DNA of 64,000 nucleotides, taken from assembly GCF_017348835.2 (NCBI RefSeq), contig NZ_CP072315.1; one strand, 5' to 3'. Made by a program: the position numbers and the translations under genes. The stretch comes from Escherichia coli (GTDB lineage Bacteria > Pseudomonadota > Gammaproteobacteria > Enterobacterales > Enterobacteriaceae). This document shows, piece after piece, positions 27,593 through 45,122 of this stretch (position 1 is its first letter; each line of letters opens with the position of its first letter). The notes under the pieces were generated by a model. The model ran no database searches and had not been told where the DNA came from. It saw only the letters and a list, made by a program, of their open reading frames with translations.

Positions 27593-27616
27593 AGTAGTCT
27601 CCTAAACAGGAAGTTT

Positions 27617-29270: not shown

Positions 29271-29481
29271 CCAAACTCTCTCAGGAATAATATCTTTGAG
29301 ATAGATTAACACGCTTAATTTGGATTATTTTTTGGTTCAGGTTCTAAATTTATTGTGATTATTCTGCCTTTAAGTTGCAAAAAGATTGGTTTTAAGCCCG
29401 CCCATGAAATAATGACTTGTTAAAATACTGCCTGTAAATAGGCTTGTGGATACATGTCTGTACTCAACAAATCAAGGTGAA

Positions 29482-30000
29482 ATGATGTTTTTTTTAACAA
29501 AGTTACTTTTGCCCATCATGATTGTTGTATTCCCAGTGGCGTCCTGGGGGAACTCAACAACTTTTGAGGCAAAGGTGGTTAAGATTGTTGACGGTGACAC
29601 CATAACTGCGTTGGATGCTCAAAACACAACCATCAAAATACGGATGTATGGTATAGACGCTCCTGAATCTAAACAGGCTTTTGGCCAAAAAGCAAAACAG
29701 GCCTTAACCACAGCTATAGCAACTAAAATCGTTACCGTGATAGACCATGGTACGGATATCTATGGCCGTATGTTAGGTACCATCTGGTTAGATGGATATG
29801 ATATCAATGCCTCTATGGTGGACAGTGGATATGCGTGGGTTTATCGGTTCGAAGATAACGCCATTGTCCCTGGCTATATCAAATATGAATCCGCAGCACA
29901 AAAGGAGGCAAAAGGGTTATGGGCAGACACCAACCCTGTCCCACCATGGCAGTGGAGACAGGCAAACGAAAAGCCCAGAAAGGTGAAAGAGAAGAAATAA
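29482..30000 (+). CDS. Secreted thermonuclease (staphylococcal nuclease-like) protein
   Basis: ATG at 29482 after an AAGGTGA ribosome-binding site; N-terminal signal-like helix; SNase-like motifs (GDTIT, IRMYGIDAPE, DxYGR, GLW). Confidence 0.7.
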   Translation: MMFFLTKLLLPIMIVVFPVASWGNSTTFEAKVVKIVDGDTITALDAQNTTIKIRMYGIDAPESKQAFGQKAKQALTTAIATKIVTVIDHGTDIYGRMLGTIWLDGYDINASMVDSGYAWVYRFEDNAIVPGYIKYESAAQKEAKGLWADTNPVPPWQWRQANEKPRKVKEKK

Positions 30001-30002
30001 CC

Positions 30003-30899
30003 ATGATGAAAGAGCCTCATCCGTTACTTCAGTTGGTACTAAACGATTCCGGTCGTCTAACCATGCCTGTTTATTATAGAGATCAACAGTATTGCCCGAC
30101 TTGCCTTACAAAGGTGTTGAAGAGTGAGGATGGAAGTTTGGCGCACCTCGGGGAAATAAATCAAAATACATGTAGACCTTCTATTTCAGTAGTTGTGACA
30201 AAAGCAATTATTGAAATGTTATGTGACGGGGAAAAAATATATGTAAATCCAATACGACACCGAGGCCGGGTGCTGGCACCCTCAGTAATTTTTTCTCCCG
30301 ACACTCACACTTTCAAACCGTTTATAAATACAGACTATCAGCCTGTGGGAGCAAACTGGAAAAGTGAAAAGGGATATAAACTCGGTCTGTTTTATCTCAA
30401 AGATCGAGCCAACTCTATCAATAAAGAGGAATTTGATTTCATTGCCGTTATAGACCCTGAGGCAATGCAGAAAGAATTTATTTCGGCCTGGTCTGAGGTT
30501 GATGAAAAAAATCCATTGGAAACGCTGAAGCAGATCTTACGATCTAAAAACAACTCTTCTTTATGGGTAAAATGGCCTGGCAAAATTGAGCATGCGCAAA
30601 AAGGAAATTACAACGAAAATTACTGGTTCGATTATCAATCTGATAATCAGGAAGTGAACTGTACGGTCTCTGTTGTAGGTATCGAAGGTAACAGTTCCGG
30701 TGAGACAATTTATAGATTGCAAACTTTGCTAAAGCGTAAGCTCAATGAATATCAACTGGTTCGGTCTTTAGGGACTATTATGCTTCTTGATAATACCGGG
30801 AATATGATTCCATCAAACCATCCTTATTTTGAAGTCATCTCAAAAGCATGTATAAATGGAGTGCGTGACTTTGTTCGTCAAAACCCGTGGGTAGTCTGA
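30003..30899 (+). CDS. Hypothetical protein
   Basis: ATG 3 nt after the nuclease stop gives 298 aa; the track ORF from 29919 is an upstream extension overlapping the nuclease. Confidence 0.5.
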   Translation: MMKEPHPLLQLVLNDSGRLTMPVYYRDQQYCPTCLTKVLKSEDGSLAHLGEINQNTCRPSISVVVTKAIIEMLCDGEKIYVNPIRHRGRVLAPSVIFSPDTHTFKPFINTDYQPVGANWKSEKGYKLGLFYLKDRANSINKEEFDFIAVIDPEAMQKEFISAWSEVDEKNPLETLKQILRSKNNSSLWVKWPGKIEHAQKGNYNENYWFDYQSDNQEVNCTVSVVGIEGNSSGETIYRLQTLLKRKLNEYQLVRSLGTIMLLDNTGNMIPSNHPYFEVISKACINGVRDFVRQNPWVV

Positions 30900-30946
30900 C
30901 GGTCAACTATAAAGCATAATATAATTAGTAATAACAAGGAACAGAC

Positions 30947-31354
30947 ATGAATGAAAACTCAGTAATCTTAATAAGTTTATTTTGGTTTTTTTTGGGATCG
31001 AGTGTTGTAGCTGGTTTTATGGATGCATCATTATATTGCTGGATTTTTGCAGCCATAAGCGCATTGTTTCTTCTTTCGGTGATACAAACACCAAAGGAGT
31101 TAACGGTATCTATTAGTCATATGACAAGCAAAACGCTGATCTCAAAGACAGATGATGGATACACATTTAGCATTTCACCTTACGGAGACGGGTACCGCTT
31201 ATCAGTCTCGCCTGAAAATCGTCACAATGGTACCCAAAGCTTTGACGGCTGGTTCCCACGTTTTTTTTCCGAACCACAGTATGCCAAATCATCTTTAACT
31301 AAATTTCTCGGTGAGTCCTTAGTATGGGAAGAAGATTCAAGTAATGCTCTATGA
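30947..31354 (+). CDS. Hypothetical small membrane protein
   Basis: 135-aa ORF with two N-terminal hydrophobic helices; AT-rich context. Confidence 0.45.
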   Translation: MNENSVILISLFWFFLGSSVVAGFMDASLYCWIFAAISALFLLSVIQTPKELTVSISHMTSKTLISKTDDGYTFSISPYGDGYRLSVSPENRHNGTQSFDGWFPRFFSEPQYAKSSLTKFLGESLVWEEDSSNAL

Positions 31355-31399
31355 GATTACTTATTATAAATTTTTCTATTAATCTCCATGGAGTGATAT

Positions 31400-31654
31400 A
31401 TGAATTTGGCCTATTTTTTATTTTTGTCTATAACTGTTATGCTTACGAGCTTTATTATTAAATCACTTGTCGTATTGGTAAAGTTCAAATTACTTCGTGA
31501 TGAACGTCTCGAATATACCAGCAATAAAAATATTGATGAGATGTACGATTTAATGAATGCGAAGGAAGAAATCCTCATAAGGCATCATAAGCAGATGTTG
31601 GCATTGCATCTTTCACTATTAATATTCGTTCTATTTATTGCTTACATTTACTAA
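31400..31654 (+). CDS. Hypothetical small membrane protein
   Basis: 84-aa ORF with hydrophobic N- and C-terminal helices. Confidence 0.4.
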   Translation: MNLAYFLFLSITVMLTSFIIKSLVVLVKFKLLRDERLEYTSNKNIDEMYDLMNAKEEILIRHHKQMLALHLSLLIFVLFIAYIY

Positions 31655-31691
31655 AAATAATTTTATTCAACATTTCAACAAAGGGTTTTCA

Positions 31692-31979
31692 ATGGAAAGC
31701 TTCGAAACTGAACAAATGATTCAATATGCTTTCTACATAAATATCGTAATAACGACTGGTTTGGCATGGTTTTGCTTGCGGTCAGGATTGCATTACAATT
31801 TTTTCAGAAAAGCAGAGAGTGCCAGAACAAAAGGGCTGAGTAGTACCTCTACTGAACACGGTCCAGCAATAGTGAGACTAAAGAAGCTACAAGCATTAGT
31901 AGATTTTATTAGTAACTGTGCTTTTCTAATCCTTTCAATTGGCACAGCTTATATTTTGTATGTTTGGAGCCACAGTTAA
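31692..31979 (+). CDS. Hypothetical small membrane protein
   Basis: ATG at 31692 gives 95 aa (MESFETEQ...); the track start at 31638 overlaps the previous gene. Confidence 0.4.
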   Translation: MESFETEQMIQYAFYINIVITTGLAWFCLRSGLHYNFFRKAESARTKGLSSTSTEHGPAIVRLKKLQALVDFISNCAFLILSIGTAYILYVWSHS

Positions 31980-32015
31980 CTCATACGAGGTAACTTCGGC
32001 AGGTAACAACTTCTA

Positions 32016-32246
32016 ATGCAGGACTTTAATAACTCTAAGGGATTCTACATGAAAAAAGACGATCTAATTACGCGTTGTAAATTACTTAAAGGCGAACGCG
32101 ATGAGTCTATCTTTACCATATTAATTGGGATAGTAGTAAAGCTGGGGCTGGTAGGCCTGGCATTCTATCTGTTGCTTGGTTCCACGATTGATTGGTCAAG
32201 CTGGAAAACTTATGCCGCCATGTTGATCTTGGGAGCATTTCTCTAA
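32016..32246 (+). CDS. Hypothetical small membrane protein
   Basis: 76-aa ORF (alternative start at 32049) with a hydrophobic helix. Confidence 0.4.
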   Translation: MQDFNNSKGFYMKKDDLITRCKLLKGERDESIFTILIGIVVKLGLVGLAFYLLLGSTIDWSSWKTYAAMLILGAFL

Positions 32247-32582
32247 AATCTTGAACCTTTTTTCACTCATTACAAGCCATGACCTAGTGCGTAGATCATA
32301 CGATCTTTAAACCTTATGTCATTGATTTATAAGTACATATAACAAAGATTATGTTAAATACTGTATGTATGTACAGCATCAACAGTTGCCCCCCTCATAT
32401 TGAGGTAATTGCTACATTCATACCACTATTCTTCTTATAGTATCGACATCCTGAATTATTGCACCCTACTGCTTTGTCTTTAGCTGTTCCGAATTAAAAT
32501 TCATTGCTCAATTTGGATCACATGACGATCAGCGTATTCCTTTGCTTTATCAAAGTTAAGTTTTTAAAACATAAGATATGTA

Positions 32583-33044
32583 ATGACAAATTCTCAATCT
32601 GATTTTCCTTTGAACGATCAAAATTTTCAGGCAGATTTGCTGAAAATCAAAAAGGTTTTCGCCGACCTTATAACGCAGGCATCAGATGGTAAGATACCCA
32701 TAAGGTCTTCTCATGTACACGGCTTACACCATTTCGAGGAGCTCTACATCCGGGCAAGAGCAGGCATGTGTTCGGTCCTGGGATATCCGGTCATGGTTGT
32801 TTCAACTATCTCAGTTAAAGAGCCCGGCACAGGCATTTTTAGAGCGCTTCTTGCAGAATTGAAATGTATTGCAGATGAACAAAATTACATTTTGAAAATT
32901 GAAAATGTACTGCCTCCCCTATTCCGCAAATACCTTATTCAAGAAGGTTTTGTTTTCCCAGGTGAACCTTGGATGTGTGGTTCCGGCTATTGGTTTAAGA
33001 ACCCACAAGTACTTCATGAAAATATTGAGTTATTATCTGTTTAA
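32583..33044 (+). CDS. Hypothetical protein, possibly GNAT-like
   Basis: 153-aa ORF; core resembling acetyl-CoA-binding motif A (KEPGTGIFRALLAEL) — weak inference. Confidence 0.4.
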   Translation: MTNSQSDFPLNDQNFQADLLKIKKVFADLITQASDGKIPIRSSHVHGLHHFEELYIRARAGMCSVLGYPVMVVSTISVKEPGTGIFRALLAELKCIADEQNYILKIENVLPPLFRKYLIQEGFVFPGEPWMCGSGYWFKNPQVLHENIELLSV

Positions 33045-33073
33045 GTCGATCTAACAATTTCACTGGAGCTAAC

Positions 33074-33481
33074 ATGTCCCCGGAATTGGTATCAGACATT
33101 GCAAGAGTGGCGCATGAAAAGCTACTTTCAATTTTAACGGAGTGCGGCATAGAGAAGACGGCAGGCACTTGCCTTTTTGCAAGCTATCTTGTGTGTTATT
33201 TAGCAAAAACTAAAGGTCTAGATGCTGTTGTCCGTGGGGGTAACGGTGCAGATGATGGCGGTATATTTATAGAGTGTGGTGGCTTTGGCCATTATTGGTG
33301 TGAGTTGAATTTCGAAGAAGTGCAATATTATATTGACATCACTTCCGAACAGTTTGGGTTTCATCCATACATAGTGAAACTCGCCAACGATATAACAGGA
33401 TGGCCTCGATATATTCCTGGTGATCAGGAAACGGTCGATAGTCATTTAGAACAATTATTACGCGACGGCTATACAGAATAG
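33074..33481 (+). CDS. Hypothetical protein with Cys-His-Asp triad-like spacing (possible papain/transglutaminase-like fold)
   Basis: 135-aa ORF with ordered conserved-looking C (GTCLF), H (GHYWC) and D (YYIDIT); 29 nt after the previous gene. Confidence 0.4.
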   Translation: MSPELVSDIARVAHEKLLSILTECGIEKTAGTCLFASYLVCYLAKTKGLDAVVRGGNGADDGGIFIECGGFGHYWCELNFEEVQYYIDITSEQFGFHPYIVKLANDITGWPRYIPGDQETVDSHLEQLLRDGYTE

Positions 33482-33531
33482 GCTGCGTATACCCTATCGC
33501 AGCCTTTCAGGCTCTTAACCCTTGTGACCTG

Positions 33532-34059
33532 TTAACGGAACCACTCAGGATGACGCTGCCGATCAACTTTGATAACCTGCGAATTAAATTCAACGACATC
33601 CGCTGGAGTAAGCATTAATTCATCAGGATTTACAATAAATGGTCTTAAAACCACTTCGCCACCGTCTTCTTTTGCACCGTAGATATTAATAAGAAAGTGC
33701 AGTCGTTGATTTCCTTCAGCATTGCGTTGCCATTCTCTAAAAGTCAAAGTTTGTTTAATATAGTTTGTTAAAAGAAATGCGAATTCAGATTCTTCCGTTT
33801 GTGAGATACCGATTTTGTTAGACATTTTTTTTAGTATCTTTCCGAGCATGGACACACAGGCATCTAGACTTAACGATGTTGAAATTTTGGTCGTATTAAA
33901 ATCCTCCTGCGAAAGTGAAATCATCCATGTATTATCTTTATGATAGTCGGTAATATAAATAAAATGAGATGTAAAAGGCGTTGAGTGATTGAACTCTCCT
34001 AAGTTCCATCCATACTGACTCACTGTATTTGAGCTAAGTTCTTTGTCGGTAATGTTCAT
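33532..34059 (-). CDS. Hypothetical protein
   Basis: 175-aa ORF. Confidence 0.4.
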   Translation of the reverse strand: MNITDKELSSNTVSQYGWNLGEFNHSTPFTSHFIYITDYHKDNTWMISLSQEDFNTTKISTSLSLDACVSMLGKILKKMSNKIGISQTEESEFAFLLTNYIKQTLTFREWQRNAEGNQRLHFLINIYGAKEDGGEVVLRPFIVNPDELMLTPADVVEFNSQVIKVDRQRHPEWFR

Positions 34060-34225
34060 AATTCATACCTTTCGATAAAGTCTGTAATGATAATTAGCTA
34101 TCTCAAAGGACCAGAACAACTCTTGAAATAACCACACTCGAAGAATTTATCATATTGAACACCCCTACCTAATAACCTTGCCGACTTAATAAATCACAAT
34201 AGCCCTCCCCTGACATTTTAAAATG

Positions 34226-34612
34226 CTACTTGAATTTTTGATAGCTTATGGTTGTTTTATGTTCTTTGTGATACGCATATGTCATCTTCTCTTTCCAGTA
34301 CCAATCTTGTAGATCCTGCAAGTCTAGCCCATTTTTCTCACGTATGCTTTCGTGTAATTCGCTAAGCGCGAGTTTATCATTAGGTTTATAAATGGCTAAT
34401 TTTTCTTCAAATAAATCCAGCCAACGTTTCCCCATCTTACGACGCAAAACAAACACCATCGTGATAAATGTAATGAAATGCACAGCAATTAGTTCCAACT
34501 TATGCGATTGCTGACCAGATAAAATTACTATTGTAACAACAGGGATGGCCGTATATAAAGCAATCAAAGCGACCATAAGTTGGTATGGTTTTTCCCGTAT
34601 TACCATGTTCAT
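34226..34612 (-). CDS. Hypothetical membrane protein
   Basis: 128-aa ORF with two hydrophobic helices; ends 41 bp from the Tn1721 inverted repeat. Confidence 0.45.
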   Translation of the reverse strand: MNMVIREKPYQLMVALIALYTAIPVVTIVILSGQQSHKLELIAVHFITFITMVFVLRRKMGKRWLDLFEEKLAIYKPNDKLALSELHESIREKNGLDLQDLQDWYWKEKMTYAYHKEHKTTISYQKFK

Positions 34613-34652
34613 GGGTAAACCAGAGGACGCTACTGCTTGCCAAAATCTTAAA

Positions 34653-34690
34653 GGGGAGCCCGCAGAATTCGGAAAAAATCGTACGCTAAG
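34653..34690 (+). repeat. Tn1721-type 38-bp terminal inverted repeat (IRR-like)
   Basis: GGGGAGCCCGCAGAATTCGGAAAAAATCGTACGCTAAG. Confidence 0.85.
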
Positions 34691-35360
34691 GTTTTCCGGG
34701 CATCCGTAAGGGCCGAAACTTCCCGTCTTCCAGTCTGCGGCTCTGCCGCCAGACGTAATCGCCGGTTAGGTTGATGTGCTCCCAGCCCAGCGGCGACAGG
34801 AATTGCAGCAGCTCGCCGTCCACCGGCTTGCCGGCCTCGACCAACCCCTGGGTGGCGCGTTCCAGGTACACCGTGTTCCACAGCACGATAGCCGCCGTCA
34901 CCAGGTTGAGGCCGCTGGCCCGGTAGCGCTGCTGCTCGAAGCTCCGATCCCTGATTTCCCCAAGGCGGTTGAAGAACACCGCCCTGGCCAGCGAGTTGCG
35001 CGCCTCACCTTTGTTCAGGCCGGCATGCACGCGGCGGCGCAGTTCAACACTTTGCAGCCAGTCCAGGATGAACAGCGTGCGCTCGATCCGGCCCAGCTCG
35101 CGCAGGGCCACGGCCAGTCCGTTCTGGCGCGGGTAGCTGCCGAGCTTGCGCAGCATCAGCGAGGCGGTGACGGTGCCCTGCTTGATCGAGCTGGCCAGGC
35201 GCAGGATGTCGTCCCAGTGGGCACGCACGTGCTTGATGTTCAGGGTGCCGCCGATCAGCGGGCGCAACGTCGGGTAGGCTTGCACGCCCTGCGGCACGTA
35301 CAGCTTGGTTTCGCCGAGGTCGCGGATGCGCGGCGCGAAGCGGAAGCCTAGCAGGTGCAT
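34686..35360 (-). pseudogene. tnpA: 3' fragment of a Tn21-subgroup (Tn1721-type) transposase gene
   Basis: 224-aa ORF ending inside the 38-bp inverted repeat with Tn3-family transposase C-terminal character; fragment continues to the Tn3 repeat junction near 35400. Confidence 0.7.
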
Positions 35361-35402
35361 CAGGGCAAAGACGTGATCGGTGAAGCCGGCCGTGTCGGTG
35401 TA

Positions 35403-35440
35403 GGGGTCTGACGCTCAGTGGAACGAAAACTCACGTTAAG
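35403..35440 (+). repeat. Tn3 38-bp terminal inverted repeat
   Basis: GGGGTCTGACGCTCAGTGGAACGAAAACTCACGTTAAG. Confidence 0.9.
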
Positions 35441-36738
35441 CAACGTTTTCTGCCTCTGACGCCTCTTTTAATGGTCTCAGATGTCCTTTGGTCACCAGTT
35501 CTGCCAGCGTGAAGGAATAATGGCCGAGCATATTGATATGTCCGTGGCAAAGCGGGGAGAGGCGTGCGATATCTTCATCATTCAGTGTTTCACCCTGCGC
35601 CCGGAGATGATCCAGGGCTGCCTGCATATAAATAGTGTTCCATAACACGACGGCGTTAGTGACCAGCCCCAGTGTGCCCAGTTGATCTTCCTGACCGTCG
35701 GTATATCGTTTTCTTATCTCACCTTTTTGACCGTGACAGATGGCTCTGGCAACGGCATGGCGACTTTCTCCCCGATTAAGCTGGGTCAGAATGCGCCGGC
35801 GGTAATCTTCATCATCAATATAATTAAGCAGATACAGCGTTTTGTTGATGCGCCCCACTTCAATGATTGCCTGAGTCAGTCCGGAAGGACGTTCACTTTT
35901 CAGCAATGAACGGACCAGCACTGAAACCTGTACTTTGCCCAGCTTCAGGGAGCCAGCGGTCCGGATCATTTCGTCCCACTGAAGGACTATTTTTCGGGGA
36001 TCTGATTGCCCTCTGGCAATATCATTCAGCACGCCATAGTCGGCATCATGGTCCATTCGCCAGAAAACCGAAGCACCGGCATCAGCCAGGCGTGGAGAAA
36101 ACTGGTATCCCAGCAGCCAGAAAAGGCCAAAGACAAGTTCGCTGGCACCTGCTGTATCGGTCATAATTTCGGTTGGATTCAGCCCGGTCTCCTGTTCCAG
36201 AAGACCTTCCAGCACAAAGATAGAGTCCCTCAGCGTCCCCGGTATAACGATGCCATGAAAGCCGGAATACTGATCGGACACAAAGTTGTACCAGGTGATC
36301 CCTCTGTTATTACCAAAGTATTTGCGGTTCGGTCCGGCATTGATTGTTCTGACTGGCGTAACAAAGCGCATTCCATCTGCAGATGCCACTTCTCCTCCAC
36401 CCCATATCTGTGCCAGTGGCAGCGTTGCCTGAAAATCAACCAGTCTGGCATTAGCGCTGGTGATAGTTTCAGCCCGCAGATAGTTCGCTTTTGTCCAGTT
36501 CAGCCGGTGTCGGGTCAGTGCAGGAACATTTGATCTGATCAGTGGTTCCAGACCGATATTGCAGGCTTCAGCCATCAGCACGGCGCTGATGCTGACGGGC
36601 AGATCATCAACTCTGGCACTGGCTTCACTAGCATGGAAAAACTCATCAGCAAATCCGGTATGGGCGTTAATTTCGAGCAGCAACTCCGTTAAATCCACCG
36701 GAGGGAGTAGATCACTGATCATTTTGCTCAGTCGTTTC
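35436..36738 (-). pseudogene. tnpA: Tn3 transposase gene, 3' portion, truncated by IS26
   Basis: About 430 C-terminal residues of Tn3-type TnpA (…RLSKMISDLLPPVDLTELLLEINAHTGF… to …HLRPLKEASEAENVA); the track ORF's start codon lies inside IS26. Confidence 0.85.
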
Positions 36739-37557
36739 GGCACTGTTGCAAATAGTCGGTGGTGATAAACTTATCATCCCCTTTTGCTGATGGAGCTGCA
36801 CATGAACCCATTCAAAGGCCGGCATTTTCAGCGTGACATCATTCTGTGGGCCGTACGCTGGTACTGCAAATACGGCATCAGTTACCGTGAGCTGCAGGAG
36901 ATGCTGGCTGAACGCGGAGTGAATGTCGATCACTCCACGATTTACCGCTGGGTTCAGCGTTATGCGCCTGAAATGGAAAAACGGCTGCGCTGGTACTGGC
37001 GTAACCCTTCCGATCTTTGCCCGTGGCACATGGATGAAACCTACGTGAAGGTCAATGGCCGCTGGGCGTATCTGTACCGGGCCGTCGACAGCCGGGGCCG
37101 CACTGTCGATTTTTATCTCTCCTCCCGTCGTAACAGCAAAGCTGCATACCGGTTTCTGGGTAAAATCCTCAACAACGTGAAGAAGTGGCAGATCCCACGA
37201 TCCTCAACACGGATAAAGCGCCCGCCTATGGTCGCGCGCTTGCTCTGCTCAAACGCGAAGGCCGGTGCCCGTCTGACGTTGAACACCGACAGATTAAGTA
37301 CCGGAACAACGTGATTGAATGCGATCATGGCAAACTGAAACGGATAATCAACGCCACGCTGGGATTTAAATCCATGAAGACGGCTTACGCCACCATCAAA
37401 GGTATTGAGGTGATGCGTGCACTACGCAAAGGCCAGGCCTCAGCATTTTATTATGGTGATCCCCTGGGCGAAATGCGCCTGGTAAGCAGAGTTTTTGAAA
37501 TGTAAGGCCTTTGAATAAGACAAAAGGCTGCCTCATCGCTAACTTTGCAACAGTGCC
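36739..37557 (+). mobile_element. IS26 copy 1 (819 bp, transposase frameshifted)
   Basis: 14-bp ends GGCACTGTTGCAAA / TTTGCAACAGTGCC; 1 bp shorter than the other copies from a change near 37198 (CCCACGATCCTCAACACGG versus CCCACGATTCATCAACACGG in other copies); no 8-bp target duplication. Confidence 0.9.
36802..37505 (+). pseudogene. tnp26: IS26 transposase gene, frameshifted
   Basis: Reading frame splits into track ORFs 36784..37314 and 37185..37505; protein diverges after KKWQIPR. Confidence 0.85.
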
Positions 37558-37680
37558 GCCCCAGCAGCATCTCCAGCTGTGAACGCTGTTCGGCTGACGG
37601 TATCAGTGCCAGTTTGTTCCACAGGCGCAACGTCGCCTTTTCCCTTACCTCTGAAATCAACCGGGTCAGCGTAGTGGCTC
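37558..37680 (-). pseudogene. tnpA: Internal fragment of Tn3 transposase gene
   Basis: Encodes …ISEVREKATLRLWNKLALIPSAEQRSQLEMLLG, an internal TnpA segment not contiguous with the 3' fragment on the other side of IS26; right boundary approximate. Confidence 0.6.
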
Positions 37681-37707
37681 CGGGGAGAATAATAGTCTAT
37701 CCCGGCA

Positions 37708-38085
37708 TTGCCAGTCGGGGATATTAAAAAGAGTATAGGTTTTTATTGCGATAAACTAGGTTTCACTTTGGTTCACCATGAAGATGGATTCGCAGTTCTA
37801 ATGTGTAATGAGGTTCGGATTCATCTATGGGAGGCAAGTGATGAAGGCTGGCGCTCTCGTAGTAATGATTCACCGGTTTGTACAGGTGCGGAGTCGTTTA
37901 TTGCTGGTACTGCTAGTTGCCGCATTGAAGTAGAGGGAATTGATGAATTATATCAACATATTAAGCCTTTGGGCATTTTGCACCCCAATACATCATTAAA
38001 AGATCAGTGGTGGGATGAACGAGACTTTGCAGTAATTGATCCCGACAACAATTTGATTAGCTTTTTTCAACAAATAAAAAGCTAA
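37708..38085 (+). CDS. bleO: Bleomycin-binding protein, Gram-positive (pUB110-type) BleO-like
   Basis: 125 aa from TTG at 37708; sequence PVGDIKKSIGFYCDKLGFTLVHHEDGFAVLMCNEVRIHLWEASDEGW… matches the pUB110 bleomycin-resistance protein as I recall it; an in-frame stop upstream suggests the native N-terminus is missing. Confidence 0.7.
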   Translation: MPVGDIKKSIGFYCDKLGFTLVHHEDGFAVLMCNEVRIHLWEASDEGWRSRSNDSPVCTGAESFIAGTASCRIEVEGIDELYQHIKPLGILHPNTSLKDQWWDERDFAVIDPDNNLISFFQQIKS

Positions 38086-38404
38086 AATCTATTATTAATC
38101 TGTTCAGCAATCGGGCGCGATTGCTGAATAAAAGATACGAGAGACCTCTCTTGTATCTTTTTTATTTTGAGTGGTTTTGTCCGTTACACTAGAAAACCGA
38201 AAGACAATAAAAATTTTATTCTTGCTGAGTCTGGCTTTCGGTAAGCTAGACAAAACGGACAAAATAAAAATCTAAATATGCTTGAACAACTTGTAACTTA
38301 AATTCATAACTGTATTTTGCCATAAAAAATGACCTCCCATAAGTTAGATTTTTGGTCTAACTTATGGGGGTCAGTTCATTCTACACTTGGGCTGCATGTT
38401 TTGA

Positions 38405-38797
38405 TTAATTATCTAATATCTCCGGATCTCCTGTAAAGGAATATAAAACTGCCTGCATGTTTTTCAAATAAAATACGGTGAATTTCCCATCATCAGCGCT
38501 ATACCAATCTCTCAAATGCGGATTTGCTTCAAGCATTGCTTCCCTTGCTTCCACGGTATCATCAATTACGGCTTCGCCGGTGAGCCGAATCCATTTTCCT
38601 TTTGCCATACCTGAGACTTCCACCTTTGAATTTGCCAATAACTGCTGATAAACTTTTTTCTGATTGGTTGTACCAAGATAGACCTTGCCATTCCTCTCCA
38701 TGGCTGCATTAAACGGTCTGACCCTTGGCTGGTCTCCTTCAACGGTTGCAAAATAAAAAGTTTTTGCTTCATTTAAAAAATCAACAACTTGACTCAT
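38405..38797 (-). CDS. Pyridoxamine 5'-phosphate oxidase-like (flavin-binding split-barrel) protein
   Basis: 130-aa ORF in an AT-rich, Gram-positive-like segment; fold assignment tentative. Confidence 0.5.
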   Translation of the reverse strand: MSQVVDFLNEAKTFYFATVEGDQPRVRPFNAAMERNGKVYLGTTNQKKVYQQLLANSKVEVSGMAKGKWIRLTGEAVIDDTVEAREAMLEANPHLRDWYSADDGKFTVFYLKNMQAVLYSFTGDPEILDN

Positions 38798-39079
38798 CCT
38801 TTTTTACCTCCATAAATAAATTTTTCTTTACTTTTCTTTGACCTAAATTCCACGTGCATTTTTTATTAGCTTAAAAGAACACTATTTCACGAAGAATTTA
38901 AACTGATACTCCCACATTGTAACATTATTTACCACCACCTTTCAATCTTTTTCAATAAATTATTGATTGCAACTTTTGAGTAAAGATACTTATTAAACCC
39001 TGCAAGTTATCCACAGAGCAACACTCGATTTTCAAGATGATATCTTTATTACACCAGACATTTTTCATACACTTCCTTG

Positions 39080-39899
39080 GGCACTGTTGCAAAGTTAGCG
39101 ATGAGGCAGCCTTTTGTCTTATTCAAAGGCCTTACATTTCAAAAACTCTGCTTACCAGGCGCATTTCGCCCAGGGGATCACCATAATAAAATGCTGAGGC
39201 CTGGCCTTTGCGTAGTGCACGCATCACCTCAATACCTTTGATGGTGGCGTAAGCCGTCTTCATGGATTTAAATCCCAGCGTGGCGTTGATTATCCGTTTC
39301 AGTTTGCCATGATCGCATTCAATCACGTTGTTCCGGTACTTAATCTGTCGGTGTTCAACGTCAGACGGGCACCGGCCTTCGCGTTTGAGCAGAGCAAGCG
39401 CGCGACCATAGGCGGGCGCTTTATCCGTGTTGATGAATCGTGGGATCTGCCACTTCTTCACGTTGTTGAGGATTTTACCCAGAAACCGGTATGCAGCTTT
39501 GCTGTTACGACGGGAGGAGAGATAAAAATCGACAGTGCGGCCCCGGCTGTCGACGGCCCGGTACAGATACGCCCAGCGGCCATTGACCTTCACGTAGGTT
39601 TCATCCATGTGCCACGGGCAAAGATCGGAAGGGTTACGCCAGTACCAGCGCAGCCGTTTTTCCATTTCAGGCGCATAACGCTGAACCCAGCGGTAAATCG
39701 TGGAGTGATCGACATTCACTCCGCGTTCAGCCAGCATCTCCTGCAGCTCACGGTAACTGATGCCGTATTTGCAGTACCAGCGTACGGCCCACAGAATGAT
39801 GTCACGCTGAAAATGCCGGCCTTTGAATGGGTTCATGTGCAGCTCCATCAGCAAAAGGGGATGATAAGTTTATCACCACCGACTATTTGCAACAGTGCC
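39080..39899 (-). mobile_element. IS26 copy 2 (820 bp)
   Basis: Both 14-bp ends present; abuts a 5'-truncated IS26 in the opposite orientation at 39900. Confidence 0.9.
39132..39836 (-). CDS. tnp26: IS26 transposase Tnp26 (Asn at position 184)
   Basis: 234 aa from [12 protein letters not shown]; contains KRIINATLG. Confidence 0.9.
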   Translation of the reverse strand: MNPFKGRHFQRDIILWAVRWYCKYGISYRELQEMLAERGVNVDHSTIYRWVQRYAPEMEKRLRWYWRNPSDLCPWHMDETYVKVNGRWAYLYRAVDSRGRTVDFYLSSRRNSKAAYRFLGKILNNVKKWQIPRFINTDKAPAYGRALALLKREGRCPSDVEHRQIKYRNNVIECDHGKLKRIINATLGFKSMKTAYATIKGIEVMRALRKGQASAFYYGDPLGEMRLVSRVFEM

Positions 39900-40207
39900 C
39901 AAACGCGAAGGCCGGTGCCCGTCTGACGTTGAACACCGACAGATTAAGTACCGGAACAACGTGATTGAATGCGATCATGGCAAACTGAAACGGATAATCG
40001 GCGCCACGCTGGGATTTAAATCCATGAAGACGGCTTACGCCACCATCAAAGGTATTGAGGTGATGCGTGCACTACGCAAAGGCCAGGCCTCAGCATTTTA
40101 TTATGGTGATCCCCTGGGCGAAATGCGCCTGGTAAGCAGAGTTTTTGAAATGTAAGGCCTTTGAATAAGACAAAAGGCTGCCTCATCGCTAACTTTGCAA
40201 CAGTGCC
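39900..40207 (+). mobile_element. Partial IS26 (3' terminal 308 bp)
   Basis: Encodes the C-terminal about 80 aa of Tnp26 with Gly at position 184 (KRIIGATLG); ends with TTTGCAACAGTGCC. Confidence 0.85.
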
Positions 40208-40416
40208 GGCTGAAGGCCGAGCAAGCCTGACAGGCCCGAAAAGCCCGGCACGGGCGTCGGCGGCGATGACGGCGGCGGCATTATCCAGGGTTGATGATGG
40301 AAGTGGAGGATATCGACAACCTCTCGCGCAACCAAGACATCGCGGTCGGACTGCAAGTGATCTTGAAGCCACGGGCCCGTCCCACCCCGACATGGACCTC
40401 GATGCCCGAACGGACG

Positions 40417-40917
40417 TTAGATTTCGAGTTCTAGGCGTTCTGCGATGAAGGTTGGATCCCAGCCGGGATTGAAAGTGTCGACGTGGGTGAATCCGAGCCG
40501 CTCGTATAGGCCACGCAGGTTCGGGTGGCAGTCGAGCCGCAGCTTGGCGCACCCCTGCGTTCGCGCGGCATGGCGGCAAGCCTCGATCAGCGCGGAGCTG
40601 ACACCCCGGCCCGCATGTGTCCGTCGCACCGCGAGCTTGTGCAGATATGCGGCCTCCCCCTTGAGGGCGTCGGGCCAGAACTCGGGATCCTCGGCCGACA
40701 AGGTGCAACAGCCGACGATGCCGTCGCTGCAACTCGCGACTAGGAGCTCGGATCTCAGGACGAAGGTCTCCGCGAATGTCCGGTCGATCCGCGCGACGTC
40801 CCAGGCGGGCGTTCCCTTGGCGGACATCCACGCCGCAGCGTCGTGCATCAGCCGCACAACCTCGTCGATATCACCCGAGCAGGCGACCCGAACGTTCGGA
40901 GGCTCCTCGCTGTCCAT
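40417..40917 (-). CDS. orf5: GNAT acetyltransferase (orf5 of the 3'-conserved segment)
   Basis: 166-aa ORF MDSEEPPNVRVACSGDIDEVVRLMHDAAAWM…. Confidence 0.85.
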   Translation of the reverse strand: MDSEEPPNVRVACSGDIDEVVRLMHDAAAWMSAKGTPAWDVARIDRTFAETFVLRSELLVASCSDGIVGCCTLSAEDPEFWPDALKGEAAYLHKLAVRRTHAGRGVSSALIEACRHAARTQGCAKLRLDCHPNLRGLYERLGFTHVDTFNPGWDPTFIAERLELEI

Positions 40918-41044
40918 TCGCTCCCCTGGCGCGGTATGAACCGCCGCCTCATAGTGCAGTTTGATCCTGACGAGCCCAGCATGTCTGCGCCCACCTTCGC
41001 GGAACCTGACCAGGGTCCGCTAGCGGGCGGCCGGAAGGTGAATG

Positions 41045-41884
41045 CTAGGCATGATCTAACCCTCGGTCTCTGGCGTCGCGACTGCGAAATTTCGCGAGGG
41101 TTTCCGAGAAGGTGATTGCGCTTCGCAGATCTCCAGGCGCGTGGGTGCGGACGTAGTCAGCGCCATTGCCGATCGCGTGAAGTTCCGCCGCAAGGCTCGC
41201 TGGACCCAGATCCTTTACAGGAAGGCCAACGGTGGCGCCCAAGAAGGATTTCCGCGACACCGAGACCAATAGCGGAAGCCCCAACGCCGACTTCAGCTTT
41301 TGAAGGTTCGACAGCACGTGCAGCGATGTTTCCGGTGCGGGGCTCAAGAAAAATCCCATCCCCGGATCGAGGATGAGCCGGTCGGCAGCGACCCCGCTCC
41401 GTCGCAAGGCGGAAACCCGCGCCTCGAAGAACCGCACAATCTCGTCGAGCGCGTCTTCGGGTCGAAGGTGACCGGTGCGGGTGGCGATGCCATCCCGCTG
41501 CGCTGAGTGCATAACCACCAGCCTGCAGTCCGCCTCAGCAATATCGGGATAGAGCGCAGGGTCAGGAAATCCTTGGATATCGTTCAGGTAGCCCACGCCG
41601 CGCTTGAGCGCATAGCGCTGGGTTTCCGGTTGGAAGCTGTCGATTGAAACACGGTGCATCTGATCGGACAGGGCGTCTAAGAGCGGCGCAATACGTCTGA
41701 TCTCATCGGCCGGCGATACAGGCCTCGCGTCCGGATGGCTGGCGGCCGGTCCGACATCCACGACGTCTGATCCGACTCGCAGCATTTCGATCGCCGCGGT
41801 GACAGCGCCGGCGGGGTCTAGCCGCCGGCTCTCATCGAAGAAGGAGTCCTCGGTGAGATTCAGAATGCCGAACACCGTCACCAT
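41045..41884 (-). CDS. sul1: Sulfonamide-resistant dihydropteroate synthase Sul1
   Basis: 279 aa from [23 protein letters not shown]. Confidence 0.95.
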
Positions 41885-42225
41885 GGCGTCGGCCTCCGCA
41901 GCGACTTCCACGATGGGGATCGGGCGAGCAAAAAGGCAGCAATTATGAGCCCCATACCTACAAAGCCCCACGCATCAAGCTTTTGCCCATGAAGCAACCA
42001 GGCAATGGCTGTAATTATGACGACGCCGAGTCCCGACCAGACTGCATAAGCAACACCGACAGGGATGGATTTCAGAACCAGAGAAAGAAAATAAAATGCG
42101 ATGCCATAACCGATTATGACAACGGCGGAAGGGGCAAGCTTAGTAAAGCCCTCGCTAGATTTTAATGCGGATGTTGCGATTACTTCGCCAACTATTGCGA
42201 TAACAAGAAAAAGCCAGCCTTTCAT
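41878..42225 (-). CDS. qacEdelta1: Truncated SMR efflux protein QacEdelta1
   Basis: 115 aa [27 protein letters not shown]…. Confidence 0.95.
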
Positions 42226-42335
42226 GATATATCTCCCAATTTGTGTAGGGCTTATTATGCACGCTTAAAAATAATAAAAGCAGACTTGACCTGATAGTTT
42301 GGCTGTGAGCAATTATGTGCTTAGTGCATCTAACG
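42223..42335 (-). repeat. About 110-bp direct repeat, copy A (start of 3'-conserved segment upstream of qacEdelta1)
   Basis: CCCAATTTGTGTAGGGCTTATTATGCACGCTTAAAAATAATAAAAGCAGACTTGACCTGATAGTTTGGCTGTGAGCAATTATGTGCTTAGTGCATCTAACG. Confidence 0.9.
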
Positions 42336-42341
42336 CCTGAA

Positions 42342-43187
42342 TTAAGCTGCGCCGCGAAGCGGCGTCGGCTTGAATGAACTGTTAGACATCATTGGCGTGG
42401 AGCCGAGCAGACTGGCGGCTTCGTGCTTCACAAAGTAAATGAACGCAGTCAACTGATCAGCGCGTGAGGCCAAGCAATCCATCCCTTGTCCAAGGTAAGC
42501 CTGCTGGGCTTCAAGCAGCACGGGCTGATGTTGGACGGGCAGGCGTTCCATTACCCAGTTGGCAGCTACATCCTTCGGCGCGATCTTGCCGGTTGCTGCG
42601 CTGTACCAAATGCGAGACAAAGTAAGCACTACATTCCGCTCGTCGCCTGCCCAATCCGGTTGTGAGTTCCATAGTTTCAAGGTGTCGGCCAGTGCTTTGA
42701 ATAGATCGCTTTCCGGGACTGAGTTGAAGAAATCTTCCGCGGCCGAACCTGCCAAGGCAAGGCTGTGTTGCCTTGCTTTAGTTAGCAGAATAGCCAGATC
42801 AACATCGGTTGTCGCGGGCTCGAAGATGCCCGCAAGAATGTCCTTGCGCTGCCACTCCCCGAATTGCAGTTCCCGTCTGGCTGGATAACGCCAAGGAACA
42901 ACATCGCCGTACACGACGATGGTAACTTCCAAGGCACGGAGAGCTTCACTTTGGCCGGGAGAAGCGGAAACTTCCAGGAAATCTACGAACAGAGCCTGCC
43001 GCACAGTCTCATCGAGCTGTGCAGTCACAGTAACCAGCAAATCAATATCACTGCATGGCTTCAGGCCACCGTCGAGTGCAGAGCCGTACAAATGCACGGC
43101 CAGCAACGTCGATCCCAGATGATGCTCGATGACGTTGAGTGCCTGTGATAGCTGTACCGAAATCTCGGCGGGCACTGCGTTGCTCAT
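42342..43187 (-). CDS. aadA16: Aminoglycoside (3'')(9) adenylyltransferase, aadA16-type
   Basis: 281 aa from MSNAVPAEISVQ; C-terminus …MSNSSFKPTPLRGAA reads into the attC region; allele assignment is from the array context and my recollection of the gene length. Confidence 0.8.
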   Translation of the reverse strand: MSNAVPAEISVQLSQALNVIEHHLGSTLLAVHLYGSALDGGLKPCSDIDLLVTVTAQLDETVRQALFVDFLEVSASPGQSEALRALEVTIVVYGDVVPWRYPARRELQFGEWQRKDILAGIFEPATTDVDLAILLTKARQHSLALAGSAAEDFFNSVPESDLFKALADTLKLWNSQPDWAGDERNVVLTLSRIWYSAATGKIAPKDVAANWVMERLPVQHQPVLLEAQQAYLGQGMDCLASRADQLTAFIYFVKHEAASLLGSTPMMSNSSFKPTPLRGAA

Positions 43188-43299
43188 GATGTCTAACTCC
43201 CAATTTGTGTAGGGCTTATTATGCACGCTTAAAAATAATAAAAGCAGACTTGACCTGATAGTTTGGCTGTGAGCAATTATGTGCTTAGTGCATCTAACG
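43186..43299 (-). repeat. About 110-bp direct repeat, copy B (5' region of the aadA16 cassette)
   Basis: Near-identical to copy A; supplies the MSNA start of aadA16. Confidence 0.9.
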
Positions 43300-43367
43300 C
43301 CGCTAAGCAGCGGCACATTTTGCGTTTTGAGCGCAGCGAAGCAAAATGTGTCCGATGGCTTGGATGG

Positions 43368-43841
43368 TTAACCCCTTTGCCAGATTTGATAGCGATAATT
43401 TATATTTGAATGAAATTCCTGCTCGAACACCACATTGAACTCTTTGGGGATTTCCGGAAAGAAAACATTGCCCTCTGGCTCGGAATCTATTGTCGAGATA
43501 TGTAGCGTGTCGGCATGGGCGATCAGACTCTTGTAGATCTCTCCACCACCAGAAACAACAACATGGTTCGTAAGAGTCTTTAGCTCCCTCATTGCTGCTT
43601 CTATAGATGGAAACACAACCACATCATCGTTAGTAGCTACCGATCCTGAGCGGCTGACAACTGCATACTTTCTATTTGGGAGAGCCCCCATTGCCTCAAA
43701 TGTTTTACGGCCGACTAAGAGCCATTGATTGTAAGTTATTGCTTTAAAAAGCAGCTGCTCACCTTTAGCGTTCCACGGGATATCCGAGCCGCAGCCAATA
43801 ACCCCATTTCTTGCTTTTGCAGCCATTAGTGATATTTTCAC
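43368..43841 (-). CDS. dfrA27: Trimethoprim-resistant dihydrofolate reductase, dfrA27-type
   Basis: 157 aa from a GTG start (V)[22 protein letters not shown]…; 474 bp. Confidence 0.8.
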
Positions 43842-43973
43842 GATACTCCTTTGGGTTAACGCCGCCATAAACGGCGACAGGGTGGCGCGCCTATTGCGCA
43901 TAAAATGGCGAAGCCATGCGCAACAGGCGCGGAATCTCTGGCGTCCGGTTTGATGGCTTTGTTATGCAAAGGA

Positions 43974-44426
43974 CTAGTCTTCAATGACGTGTAAACCACG
44001 GCGCTTTAAGTCCTCCAACGAATCCAACATTCCCCTTATTAATTCAACAGGATGCCCCTCCCAGTCTTCAACAACGCCAACAATTCTCAAGGGTTCGCAG
44101 GTTCTATAGGACTGTGTTGGATTACCGGGAAATCTTTTGTTCGTAAGATTCGGATCGTCTTCGAACGGTCCTGTTGGCTCAACTATGTATATGTAGCCGC
44201 GACCCTCGAGGCCAGACAGTGACATAGCAAGTTCAGCTCCCCAAACTGCTGGCTCCATCAAGGCTGAAAAGTAGATGTGCTTAAGAATACGACCGTCCTC
44301 GAAATGAGAGATGAACCCTGTGGTTAGCAAGTCACCAATCGCCAAATTGGCTTTGGTTCCATGATAGAACGGTCCTTGCACCTGCTTGTAATTATCATGA
44401 GAGATGGGAATCCAATCTTTTACCAT
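43974..44426 (-). CDS. arr-3: Rifampin ADP-ribosyltransferase Arr-3
   Basis: 150 aa MVKDWIPISHDNYKQVQGPFYHGTKANL…. Confidence 0.9.
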   Translation of the reverse strand: MVKDWIPISHDNYKQVQGPFYHGTKANLAIGDLLTTGFISHFEDGRILKHIYFSALMEPAVWGAELAMSLSGLEGRGYIYIVEPTGPFEDDPNLTNKRFPGNPTQSYRTCEPLRIVGVVEDWEGHPVELIRGMLDSLEDLKRRGLHVIED

Positions 44427-44522
44427 TTTAAGACCCTTAATTGTTGGGATTTGGCTGCATAACGTTTGACATGAGGGGCGGCCAAGGGCGCCAGCCCTTG
44501 GACGTCCCCCTCGATGGAAGGG

Positions 44523-45122
44523 TTAGGCATCACTGCGTGTTCGCTCGAATGCCTGGCGTGTTTGAACCATGTACACGGCTGGACCATATGGGGTGGTTAC
44601 GGTACCTTGCCTCTCAAACCCCGCTTTCTCGTAGCATCGGATCGCTCGCAAGTTGCTCGGCGACGGGTCCGTTTGGATCTTGGTGACCTCGGGATCATTG
44701 AACAGCAACTCAACCAGAGCTCGAACCAGCTTGGTTCCCAAGCCTTTGCCCAGTTGTGATGCATTCGCCAGTAACTGGTCTATTCCGCGTACTCCTGGAT
44801 CGGTTTCTTCTTCCCACCGTCCGTCCCCGCTTCCAAGAGCAACGTACGACTGGGCATACCCAATCGGCTCTCCATTCAGCATTGCAATGTATGGAGTGAC
44901 GGACTCTTGCGCTAAAACGCTTGGCAAGTACTGTTCCTGTACGTCAGCAAGTGTCGGGCGTGCTTCTTCTCCGCCCCACCACTCGACGATATGAGATCGA
45001 TTTAGCCACTCATAGAGCATCGCAAGGTCATGCTCAGTCATGAGGCGCAGTGTGACGGAATCGTTGCTGTTGGTCACGATGCTGTACTTTGTGATGCCTA
45101 ACTTTGTTTTTGCGTTGCTCAT
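44523..45122 (-). CDS. aac(6')-Ib-cr: Aminoglycoside/fluoroquinolone acetyltransferase AAC(6')-Ib-cr
   Basis: 199 aa from MSNAKTKLG; carries both -cr signature substitutions (Trp102Arg in GDGRWEEE and Asp179Tyr in TTPYGPAVY, numbering per the usual convention). Confidence 0.9.

What the first reader, a model, noticed from the sequence alone, without database searches (positions are those of the whole stretch)
36739..37680. IS26 copy with a frameshifted transposase, flanked by non-contiguous pieces of Tn3 tnpA
Copy 1 is 819 bp, 1 bp shorter than the other copies, because of a change near 37198 (CCCACGATCCTCAACACGG versus CCCACGATTCATCAACACGG) that breaks the Tnp26 frame after KKWQIPR. It would be non-autonomous but could be mobilised in trans. 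One side carries the Tn3 tnpA 3' end and the other carries an internal tnpA segment, implying an IS26-adjacent deletion of about 1.1 kb.
Basis: seen in the sequence. Interest (0 to 1): 0.35.

Follow-up and report, generated by a model that had tools for sequence, protein, structure and literature searches.

The report
Dead IS26 copy inside Tn3-type transposase gene
This is a real but ordinary broken copy of the resistance-spreading insertion sequence IS26, sitting where it deleted 1.1 kb of a Tn3-type transposase gene; the same broken allele is inherited in well over a hundred public plasmids, so it is not a sequencing error.

Summary
Window 36739-37557 is an 819-bp IS26 with perfect 14-bp ends. 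Its only difference from the 820-bp copies 2 and 3 is ATTCATC>ATCCTC at 37201-37204. The Tnp26 frame breaks after R133, so the second D and the E of the DDE triad are lost.

It is not an assembly error. The identical change is found in 84 complete E. coli records and 149 PLSDB plasmids, and RefSeq already annotates it as 'frameshifted'.

The flanks are tnpA nt 1704-3006 plus the 38-bp IR on the left (35403-36738) and tnpA nt 468-604 on the right (37558-37694). Exactly 1099 bp is missing and there is no 8-bp duplication. Seventeen plasmids keep the IS26-free precursor, with continuous tnpA joined to the same bleO junction, so the deletion reading holds.

'Mobilised in trans' is not supported. 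The allele does occur at four or more other IS26 sites, but never with a target duplication, and at least three of those sites hold an intact IS26 in sister plasmids. This fits IS26-IS26 recombination or gene conversion, a known laboratory phenomenon.

An intact allele, an A466C-only allele and the frameshifted allele all occur at this same site.

Verdict: ordinary, already annotated, low interest.

The parts
35403..35440 (+). 38-bp terminal inverted repeat of the Tn3-type transposon (tnpA end)
   Evidence: Exact match to GGGGTCTGACGCTCAGTGGAACGAAAACTCACGTTAAG and to the IR of L002
35436..36738 (-). 3' part of Tn3-type tnpA (nt 1704-3006, codons 568-1001 plus stop), cut by IS26 at 36738/36739
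   Evidence: 100% identical over 1336 nt to the intact tnpA of L002. 435-aa ORF on the minus strand. PGAP labels it a 'Tn3-like element Tn3 family transposase, incomplete' in pTB422
36739..37557 (+). Frameshifted IS26, 819 bp, on the G184N (IS26-v1-type) nucleotide background
   Evidence: Perfect 14-bp IRs. Differs from copies 2 and 3 only at IS positions 463-466. PGAP labels it 'IS26 family transposase, frameshifted' in identical public records
36802..37314 (+). Truncated tnp26 reading frame: 133 native codons, 37 out-of-frame codons, then a stop
   Evidence: Translation. Pfam DDE_Tnp_IS240 positions 4-56 of 139 only
37201..37204 (+). The mutated site: WT ATTCATC becomes ATCCTC (A466C plus loss of one T)
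   Evidence: An A466C-only 820-bp allele is found at the same site in two other records
37165..37174 (+). Upstream copy of ATCCTCAACA. With 37200-37209 it forms a perfect 10-nt direct repeat that exists only in the mutant allele
   Evidence: Random compound mutations create such a repeat in 1.2% of 5000 trials
37185..37505 (+). Orphaned out-of-frame ORF holding the rest of the DDE domain (second D and E)
   Evidence: Pfam DDE_Tnp_IS240 positions 58-139 of 139
37558..37694 (-). Internal 137-bp fragment of the same tnpA (nt 468-604, codons 156-202)
   Evidence: 100% identical to L002 5001-5137
37695..38085 (+). bleO (pUB110-type bleomycin-binding protein), 5'-truncated at its junction with tnpA nt 468
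   Evidence: Annotation of identical public records. Junction located
39080..39899 (-). Intact IS26 copy 2 (G184N type). It closes the bleO-pnpox segment and is inverted relative to copy 1

Best explanation
Window 36739-37557 is a transposase-dead copy of IS26, derived from the G184N 'IS26-v1' type. It is inherited vertically with a resistance module that is widespread in plasmids from E. coli, Salmonella and Klebsiella, many of them from China.

History, in order:
1. A Tn3-type transposon had already been joined at tnpA nt 467/468 to a bleO segment. This state survives in 17 plasmids (shown).
2. An active IS26 entered this tnpA and 1099 bp (nt 605-1703) was lost next to it, leaving no 8-bp duplication. 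The structure is shown. The mechanism is inferred: either intramolecular copy-in transposition or recombination between two IS26 copies.
3. The IS then acquired A466C and lost one T of the adjacent TT. This shifts the frame after R133 and removes the second D and the E of the DDE triad. All three allelic states are shown at the same site.

The copy therefore cannot move itself. [quoted passage not shown] That reaction can also copy the mutation into, or erase it from, other resident IS26 copies by gene conversion. This last step is inferred from site polymorphism in public plasmids and from published laboratory results.
For: Structure.

Not an artefact: the exact 80-bp variant is in 84 E. coli complete-genome records, including chromosomes, and in 149 PLSDB plasmids. 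The same 3.7-kb context is in 241 plasmids and 109 E. coli records. PGAP independently calls it 'frameshifted'.

Precursor: 17 plasmids have IR plus tnpA nt 3006-468 continuous and joined to bleO at the same base.

Allelic series at identical flanks: intact (L014, L015, L017), A466C only (L016 and CP019268.1), and frameshifted.

Loss of catalytic residues: Pfam coverage and the DDE residues shown essential in PMC4196232.

Secondary spread without transposition: the allele is found at sul1-trunc|IS|IS6100, tnpR-trunc|IS|oqxR, oqxA|IS|pnpox and tnpA|IS|blaTEM, none with a TSD. At the first two sites most sister plasmids carry the 820-bp intact form (7 versus 15 and 2-3 versus 11), and the third is occupied by intact copy 2 in this window.

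Laboratory precedent: gene conversion between mutant and wild-type IS26 during the targeted conservative reaction (PMC10433875).
Against: No reads are available for this particular window.

Assignment of a variant to one IS26 copy among several can be corrupted by short-read polishing of long-read assemblies. Part of the apparent site-to-site spread, and the F1 versus F3 transconjugant difference, could therefore be artefactual. pD72-IncP has a single IS26, which carries the allele, and is immune to this problem.

The two A466C-only records come from one study. They could be partial conversion products or indel errors rather than a true intermediate.

The deletion mechanism (adjacent deletion versus recombination between two IS26 insertions) cannot be told apart from the end product.
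Confidence: 0.85

Rival explanations
1. The 1-bp shortfall is a sequencing or assembly error, and the copy is really an intact 820-bp IS26.
For: The lost base is one T of a TT dinucleotide once A466C is taken into account. Two records at the same site show the T retained.
Against: The identical compound change is in 84 E. coli complete-genome records and 149 PLSDB plasmids from many laboratories, hosts and years. It is tied to one genomic context. The other IS26 copies in the same window are clean.
Confidence: 0.02
2. The frameshifted IS26 is a non-autonomous element that intact IS26 copies mobilise in trans by copy-in transposition. That would explain its presence at several sites.
For: The allele is found at five or more different junction pairs. 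Its 14-bp ends are intact. Many intact IS26 copies coexist with it.
Against: None of the sites has an 8-bp duplication. At least three of the secondary sites hold an intact IS26 in sister plasmids or in this window, so the IS was already there. A frameshifted IS26 alone gave no cointegrates. An intact IS26 in the same transposon did not rescue TU excision, which indicates cis action (PMC4196232, PMC4676283).
Confidence: 0.08
3. The two tnpA pieces were never contiguous in this molecule. An IS26-bounded bleO unit carrying the 137-bp tnpA remnant was inserted next to an IS26 that had separately truncated another Tn3-type copy.
For: The bleO-pnpox segment is IS26-bounded. pD72-IncP keeps the same left junction with a different right flank, blaTEM, which shows that the two junctions can separate.
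Against: Seventeen plasmids carry the uninterrupted tnpA (nt 468-3006) fused to bleO at the same base. This is exactly the substrate expected for an in-situ deletion. Both flanks are 100% identical to a single tnpA allele. The two IS26 copies bounding the bleO segment are inverted, which is not the direct orientation of a translocatable unit.
Confidence: 0.08
4. The frameshift is functional. Either full-length Tnp26 is restored by -1 ribosomal frameshifting, or the 133-residue N-terminal product acts as a regulator or inhibitor of other IS26 copies.
For: The truncated product keeps the N-terminal region and the first D. The allele is common and persistent.
Against: There is no slippery X XXY YYZ heptamer or homopolymer at the shift site (sequence). 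The allele's frequency is explained by hitch-hiking with a successful resistance module. No expression or activity data exist.
Confidence: 0.04

Closest known systems
IS26 / IS26-v1 (IS6/IS26 family; Tnp26 G184N variant, Pong et al. 2019 as cited in PMC9019673)
   Same: Same 14-bp IRs. 817 of 820 positions are identical to the intact G184N-type copies in the same window, and the markers A459 and AA613-614 are the same.
   Different: It is 819 bp, and tnp26 is frameshifted after codon 133, so the element has no transposase of its own.
Laboratory mutants IS26-FS-L and IS26-FS-R (Harmer, Moran & Hall 2014, PMC4196232)
   Same: Frameshift-inactivated tnp26 with intact ends. The expected behaviour is no autonomous cointegrate formation and a roughly 30-fold reduced targeted reaction with an intact partner.
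   Different: [quoted passage not shown] It has not been tested experimentally.
IS26-adjacent deletions (intramolecular copy-in transposition), common in multiresistance regions
   Same: The IS abuts two non-contiguous points of one gene, there is no 8-bp duplication, and the missing segment lies on one side.
   Different: Nothing unusual. Here the undeleted precursor is also available in public plasmids.
Gene conversion during the IS26 targeted conservative reaction (Pong & Hall 2023, PMC10433875)
   Same: A mutation in one IS26 ends up in both or in neither partner. This matches plasmids where both IS26 copies flanking bleO are frameshifted (L005), and sites that are polymorphic for frameshifted versus intact copies.
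   Different: The evidence here is comparative, from public assemblies, not a controlled cross. RecA-dependent recombination is an equally good route.
Frameshifted IS26 copy 2 of the chromosomally integrated IncHI2 plasmid MRCP (PMC9019673)
   Same: An incidental single-base-deletion frameshift in one IS26 of an IncHI2 multiresistance region.
   Different: A different mutation (T deletion at +376) in a different copy.

Membership tests
IS26 (IS6/IS26 family insertion sequence) | Perfect 14-bp terminal inverted repeats GGCACTGTTGCAAA | tested here: met
   Exact matches at 36739-36752 and 37544-37557
IS26 (IS6/IS26 family insertion sequence) | About 820 bp and near-identity to IS26 | tested here: met
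   819 bp. The first 463 and last 354 bases are identical to copy 3
IS26 (IS6/IS26 family insertion sequence) | A single intact 234-aa Tnp26 with the DDE triad | tested here: not met
   The frame breaks after R133. D138 and E173 (D142 and E177 in the numbering of PMC4196232) are out of frame
IS26 (IS6/IS26 family insertion sequence) | 8-bp target-site duplication for a simple insertion | tested here: not met
   The flanks are GTCGTTTC and GCCCCAGC. This is expected after an adjacent deletion
IS26-v1 (G184N variant) | AA instead of GG at IS positions 613-614 (codon 184 AAC) | tested here: met
   The nucleotide markers are present. The codon is no longer read in frame
Tn3-type transposon (Tn1/Tn2/Tn3 group) remnants as flanks | 38-bp IR and tnpA sequence identity | tested here: met
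   The IR is exact. Both flanks are 100% identical to the intact tnpA of CP025845.1
Tn3-type transposon (Tn1/Tn2/Tn3 group) remnants as flanks | Assignment to Tn3 proper rather than Tn1 or Tn2 | not tested
   No reference Tn1, Tn2 or Tn3 sequences were compared. 'Tn3' follows the PGAP label only
Non-autonomous element mobilised in trans (MITE-like behaviour) | New insertions with target-site duplications at sites lacking a prior IS | tested here: not met
   Five junction pairs were examined and none has a TSD. At least three secondary sites hold an intact IS26 in sister plasmids or in this window
Programmed -1 frameshift transposase (IS1/IS3 style) | A slippery heptamer or homopolymer at the frame junction | tested here: not met
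   The sequence CAGATCCCACGATCCTCAACACGG contains no such motif

The most novel reading that the evidence does not exclude
The truncated Tnp26 (residues 1-133, keeping the N-terminal region and the first catalytic D) is expressed and interferes with the intact Tnp26 made by co-resident IS26 copies. This would damp rearrangement of multi-IS26 resistance regions. The allele would then be more than a hitch-hiker, and its copying into other IS26 sites by gene conversion would progressively quieten the array.
Probability: 0.05. Interest if true: 0.5.

Novelty: already known. Interest (0 to 1): 0.13.

Why it matters
For annotation, this copy should be called an IS26 pseudogene, not corrected to 820 bp. 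The flanks should be read as one Tn3-type tnpA with a 1099-bp IS26-associated deletion.

In practice the 819-bp allele is a convenient lineage marker for the tnpA-IS26-bleO(-oqxAB) module. That module circulates in E. coli, Salmonella and Klebsiella from livestock and humans, with many isolates from China.

The allele also appears at other resident IS26 sites. This is a natural, countable trace of IS26-IS26 sequence exchange, which has so far been shown mainly in laboratory crosses. None of this changes what is known about IS26.

Tried and rejected
1. Programmed frameshifting or transcriptional slippage. Rejected because there is no slippery motif at the site.

2. An IS26-borne outward promoter for the truncated bleO. 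The consensus scan of 36650-37760 found no sigma-70-like site, so this was not pursued.

3. A single templated mutation. The change creates a perfect 10-nt direct repeat with a quasi-repeat 35 bp upstream, and only 1.2% of random compound mutations do this. The idea is weakened by the A466C-only allele at the same site, which favours two steps. It is kept only as a remark.

4. Direct cross-tabulation of 'allele x context' for all records. This was not possible because listings are capped at 60 rows. The chimeric query gave only bounds: 171 E. coli records with the right-hand context, of which at least 55 are intact.

5. Literature search for this specific allele, using 'IS26' with '819 bp', bleO, Tn2, or HB42. 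Nothing describes it. Only a different frameshifted IS26 was found.

6. The transconjugant pair pHB42-F1 (frameshifted) and pHB42-F3 (intact) at the same coordinates. This is suggestive of conversion. The restored copy matches neither neighbouring IS26 at the 459 and 613-614 markers, so a polishing artefact or a distant donor cannot be excluded.

7. Scans of genome, metagenome or viral collections were not run. The plasmid and E. coli collections already answered the artefact question.

Full report
WHAT IS THERE

The IS26 terminal repeat GGCACTGTTGCAAA occurs nine times in the window, against 0 expected in shuffles. These matches bound four complete elements plus one lone end. The element at 36739-37557 is 819 bp. 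Those at 39080-39899 (inverted), 46801-47620 and 50763-51582 are 820 bp.

Copies 2 and 3 are identical to each other. Copy 4 differs from them at IS positions 459 (G) and 613-614 (GG). This is the difference between the canonical Tnp26 (G184) and the G184N 'IS26-v1' type carried by copies 2 and 3. PGAP gives the two proteins as WP_001067855.1 and WP_001067858.1. G184N as IS26-v1 is taken from Pong et al. 2019 as cited in PMC9019673.

Copy 1 has the v1-type markers. It is identical to copies 2 and 3 over its first 463 and last 354 bases. The only change is ATTCATC>ATCCTC at window 37201-37204, that is, A466C plus loss of one T of the TT at 463-464.

From the ATG at 36802 the frame yields 133 native residues (...KKWQIPR), then 37 foreign residues and a stop at 37312-37314. 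Pfam sees only profile positions 4-56 of 139 of DDE_Tnp_IS240 in this product. Positions 58-139 lie in an orphaned ORF at 37185-37505. The second D and the E of the triad are therefore lost. They are D138 and E173 counting from MNPFKG, which correspond to D142 and E177 in Harmer et al. 2014, where each was shown to be essential (PMC4196232).

REAL OR ARTEFACT

An 80-bp query centred on the change matches at 100% in 84 records of the complete E. coli genome collection, including four chromosomes. A further 5722 records match only at the wild-type level. In PLSDB, 149 plasmids match at 100%.

The whole 3.7-kb neighbourhood (35400-39100) is found at 99.9% identity or better, with at least 80% of the query covered, in 241 plasmids and 109 E. 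coli records. The hosts are E. coli, Salmonella and Klebsiella from chickens, pigs, humans, water and a giant panda. Wherever I fetched such a record, PGAP had independently annotated 'IS6-like element IS26 family transposase, frameshifted'.

A substitution plus a 1-bp loss that recurs identically across laboratories and platforms, in one context, is an inherited allele and not an assembly error. The reads of this particular isolate remain unseen.

THE FLANKS

I used an intact Tn3-type transposon as a ruler (L002, CP025845.1; tnpA encodes WP_001143760.1).
- The left flank 35403-36738 is the 38-bp IR plus tnpA nt 1704-3006.
- The right flank 37558-37694 is tnpA nt 468-604.
- Both are 100% identical to the ruler and lie on the minus strand.
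- 1099 bp (nt 605-1703) is absent, and the 8 bp on either side of the IS differ (GTCGTTTC and GCCCCAGC).

The right-hand piece ends at 37694, not 37680. At 37695 a 5'-truncated pUB110-type bleO begins.

To test whether the two pieces ever belonged to one copy, I built the hypothetical uninterrupted sequence: tnpA across the right junction, plus bleO. Seventeen plasmids, mostly K. pneumoniae, match it end to end. In two that I fetched, the IR and tnpA nt 3006-468 run continuously for 2572 bp into the same bleO junction.

The end product cannot distinguish an intramolecular copy-in event from recombination between two IS26 insertions.

WHAT THE COPY CAN AND CANNOT DO

Published experiments bear directly on this.
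- An IS26 with a frameshifted tnp26 formed no detectable cointegrates with an IS-free target.
- With an intact IS26 in the partner molecule, the targeted conservative reaction still occurred, but 30-fold less often (PMC4196232).
- In Tn4352B, TU excision was abolished when one particular IS26 was frameshifted, although the other IS26 in the same transposon was intact. This indicates that Tnp26 acts preferentially in cis (PMC4676283).

The copy in the window is therefore non-autonomous, and efficient rescue in trans is not expected. It remains a passive recombination partner.

THE ALLELE AT OTHER SITES

Among records holding the exact variant I found it at junction pairs other than the one in the window:
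- truncated sul1 | IS | IS6100 (L003, CP019282.1);
- truncated tnpR | IS | oqxR-oqxB (L004, pKW21);
- oqxA | IS | pnpox, in a plasmid where both IS26 copies flanking the bleO segment are frameshifted (L005, CP019251.1);
- the same left junction but blaTEM-238 on the right, in a 30-kb IncP plasmid whose only IS26 is this one (L007).

None of these has a target duplication, and all share the v1 background.

The oqxA|IS|pnpox site is occupied by the intact copy 2 in this window. For the sul1 site, about 7 PLSDB plasmids carry the 819-bp form and 15 the 820-bp form with an annotated intact transposase. For the oqxR site the counts are 2-3 versus 11. These counts were inferred from span length and annotation, and were verified by sequence only in the fetched loci.

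The IS was thus already present at at least three of these sites, and only its internal allele differs. That is what homologous recombination or gene conversion between IS26 copies would produce, and not transposition. Pong and Hall observed exactly such conversion in targeted conservative cointegrates, with the mutation ending up in both copies or in neither (PMC10433875).

A caveat applies. In hybrid assemblies, short-read polishing can move a variant between IS copies, so some of this polymorphism may be artefactual. One example is the pHB42-F1 (frameshifted) versus pHB42-F3 (intact) transconjugant plasmids, which differ at identical coordinates. The single-IS26 plasmid pD72-IncP is immune to this problem.

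WHERE THE MUTATION AROSE

At the very site seen in the window, with identical flanks, public records show three states:
- the intact v1 copy (L014, L015; L017 with G459);
- an 820-bp copy with A466C only, giving Tnp26 I135L (L016 and CP019268.1, the only two such E. coli records);
- the frameshifted copy.

In E. coli, 171 records have an IS26 beside the tnpA-bleO junction. At least 55 of them carry the intact allele, and 84 records carry the frameshift somewhere.

This series suggests that the mutation arose in situ in two steps, and that this locus is its birthplace. The mutant sequence forms a perfect 10-nt direct repeat (ATCCTCAACA, 37165-37174 and 37200-37209) with a quasi-repeat 35 bp upstream. 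Only 1.2% of simulated compound mutations do this. A templated origin is therefore possible, but it is no more than a remark.

COMPARISON, NOVELTY AND SCORE

The element meets the sequence definitions of IS26 (ends, length, identity). It fails the functional one, an intact DDE transposase. It is a defective derivative of a known IS, lying in a textbook IS26 deletion scar. It is already present and annotated as frameshifted in well over a hundred public records. Frameshifted IS26 copies have also been mentioned in passing in the literature (PMC9019673).

The only mildly new point is comparative. The same dead allele can be traced across several resident IS26 sites, which gives a natural read-out of IS26-IS26 exchange.

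I rate the finding as already known and of low interest. The most novel reading not excluded is that the truncated N-terminal product modulates other IS26 copies. I give this about 5%.

SETTING

The window is nearly identical to the IncHI2 plasmid p2016062-242 of Salmonella enterica (CP090540.1). Window 24001-39899 and 39896-57051 match it with 1 and 2 mismatches respectively. The one difference is an 8.8-kb segment carrying oqxAB, oqxR, tnpR, blaTEM-1 and the first 512 bp of an IS26, which is absent from the window between copy 2 and the partial IS26 at 39900-40207.

Noticed in passing
window 39900-40207 (with 39080-39899): A 308-bp 3' fragment of a canonical-type IS26 (IS positions 513-820) abuts the end of intact copy 2. 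Relative to the near-identical plasmid p2016062-242, 8.8 kb is missing here (oqxAB, oqxR, a partial IS26, tnpR, blaTEM-1 and the first 512 bp of this IS26). This looks like an IS26 event that targeted another IS26.
   Followed up: partly
window 37693-37710: bleO has lost its own 5' end at the junction with tnpA nt 468. An in-frame TAG lies at 37693-37695. PGAP starts the gene at 37699 (ATC) and the ORF finder starts it at a TTG at 37708. No sigma-70-like promoter is predicted between IS26 and bleO, so it is unclear whether it is expressed.
   Followed up: partly
window 34686-35402: The Tn3-type IR at 35403 is inserted into a fragment of a different Tn3-family transposase gene. PGAP labels it 'Tn3 family transposase, missing N-terminus' in pTB422.
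   Followed up: no
L016 (CP019247.1) 1540-2359; also CP019268.1: An 820-bp IS26 at exactly the same site carries A466C alone (Tnp26 I135L) plus a silent G84T. Only 2 of 5820 IS26-bearing E. coli records have it. It could be an intermediate, a partial conversion product or an indel error.
   Followed up: partly
L012 (CP104327.1) 20301-21119 versus L013 (CP104331.1) 20301-21120: Two transconjugant plasmids from the same donor (E. coli HB42) differ at the sul1|IS26|IS6100 site. F1 has the frameshifted allele and F3 has an intact G184N allele. The neighbouring IS26 copies are of the canonical type.
   Followed up: partly
L009 (CP090540.1) 15192-16011 and 31751-32570 versus window 39080-39899 and 46801-47620: The same two IS26 sites carry G459 in p2016062-242 but A459 in the window, with AA613-614 in both. 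Marker mosaicism among IS26 copies therefore extends beyond the frameshift.
   Followed up: no
window 37165-37174 and 37200-37209: The frameshift mutation creates a perfect 10-nt direct repeat, ATCCTCAACA. In wild-type IS26 the downstream copy is the imperfect ATTCATCAACA.
   Followed up: yes
window 40208-46400: By identity to the annotated p2016062-242, this stretch is a class 1 integron region: GNAT, sul1, qacEdelta1, aadA16, dfrA27, arr-3, aac(6')-Ib-cr and intI1. It lies between the partial IS26 and copy 3.
   Followed up: no
rows with a 510-bp rather than 564-bp span (e.g. CP024133.1, CP122513.1): Some E. coli records have the IS26-to-bleO junction 54 bp closer together. This implies a variant with a shorter tnpA remnant.
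   Followed up: no
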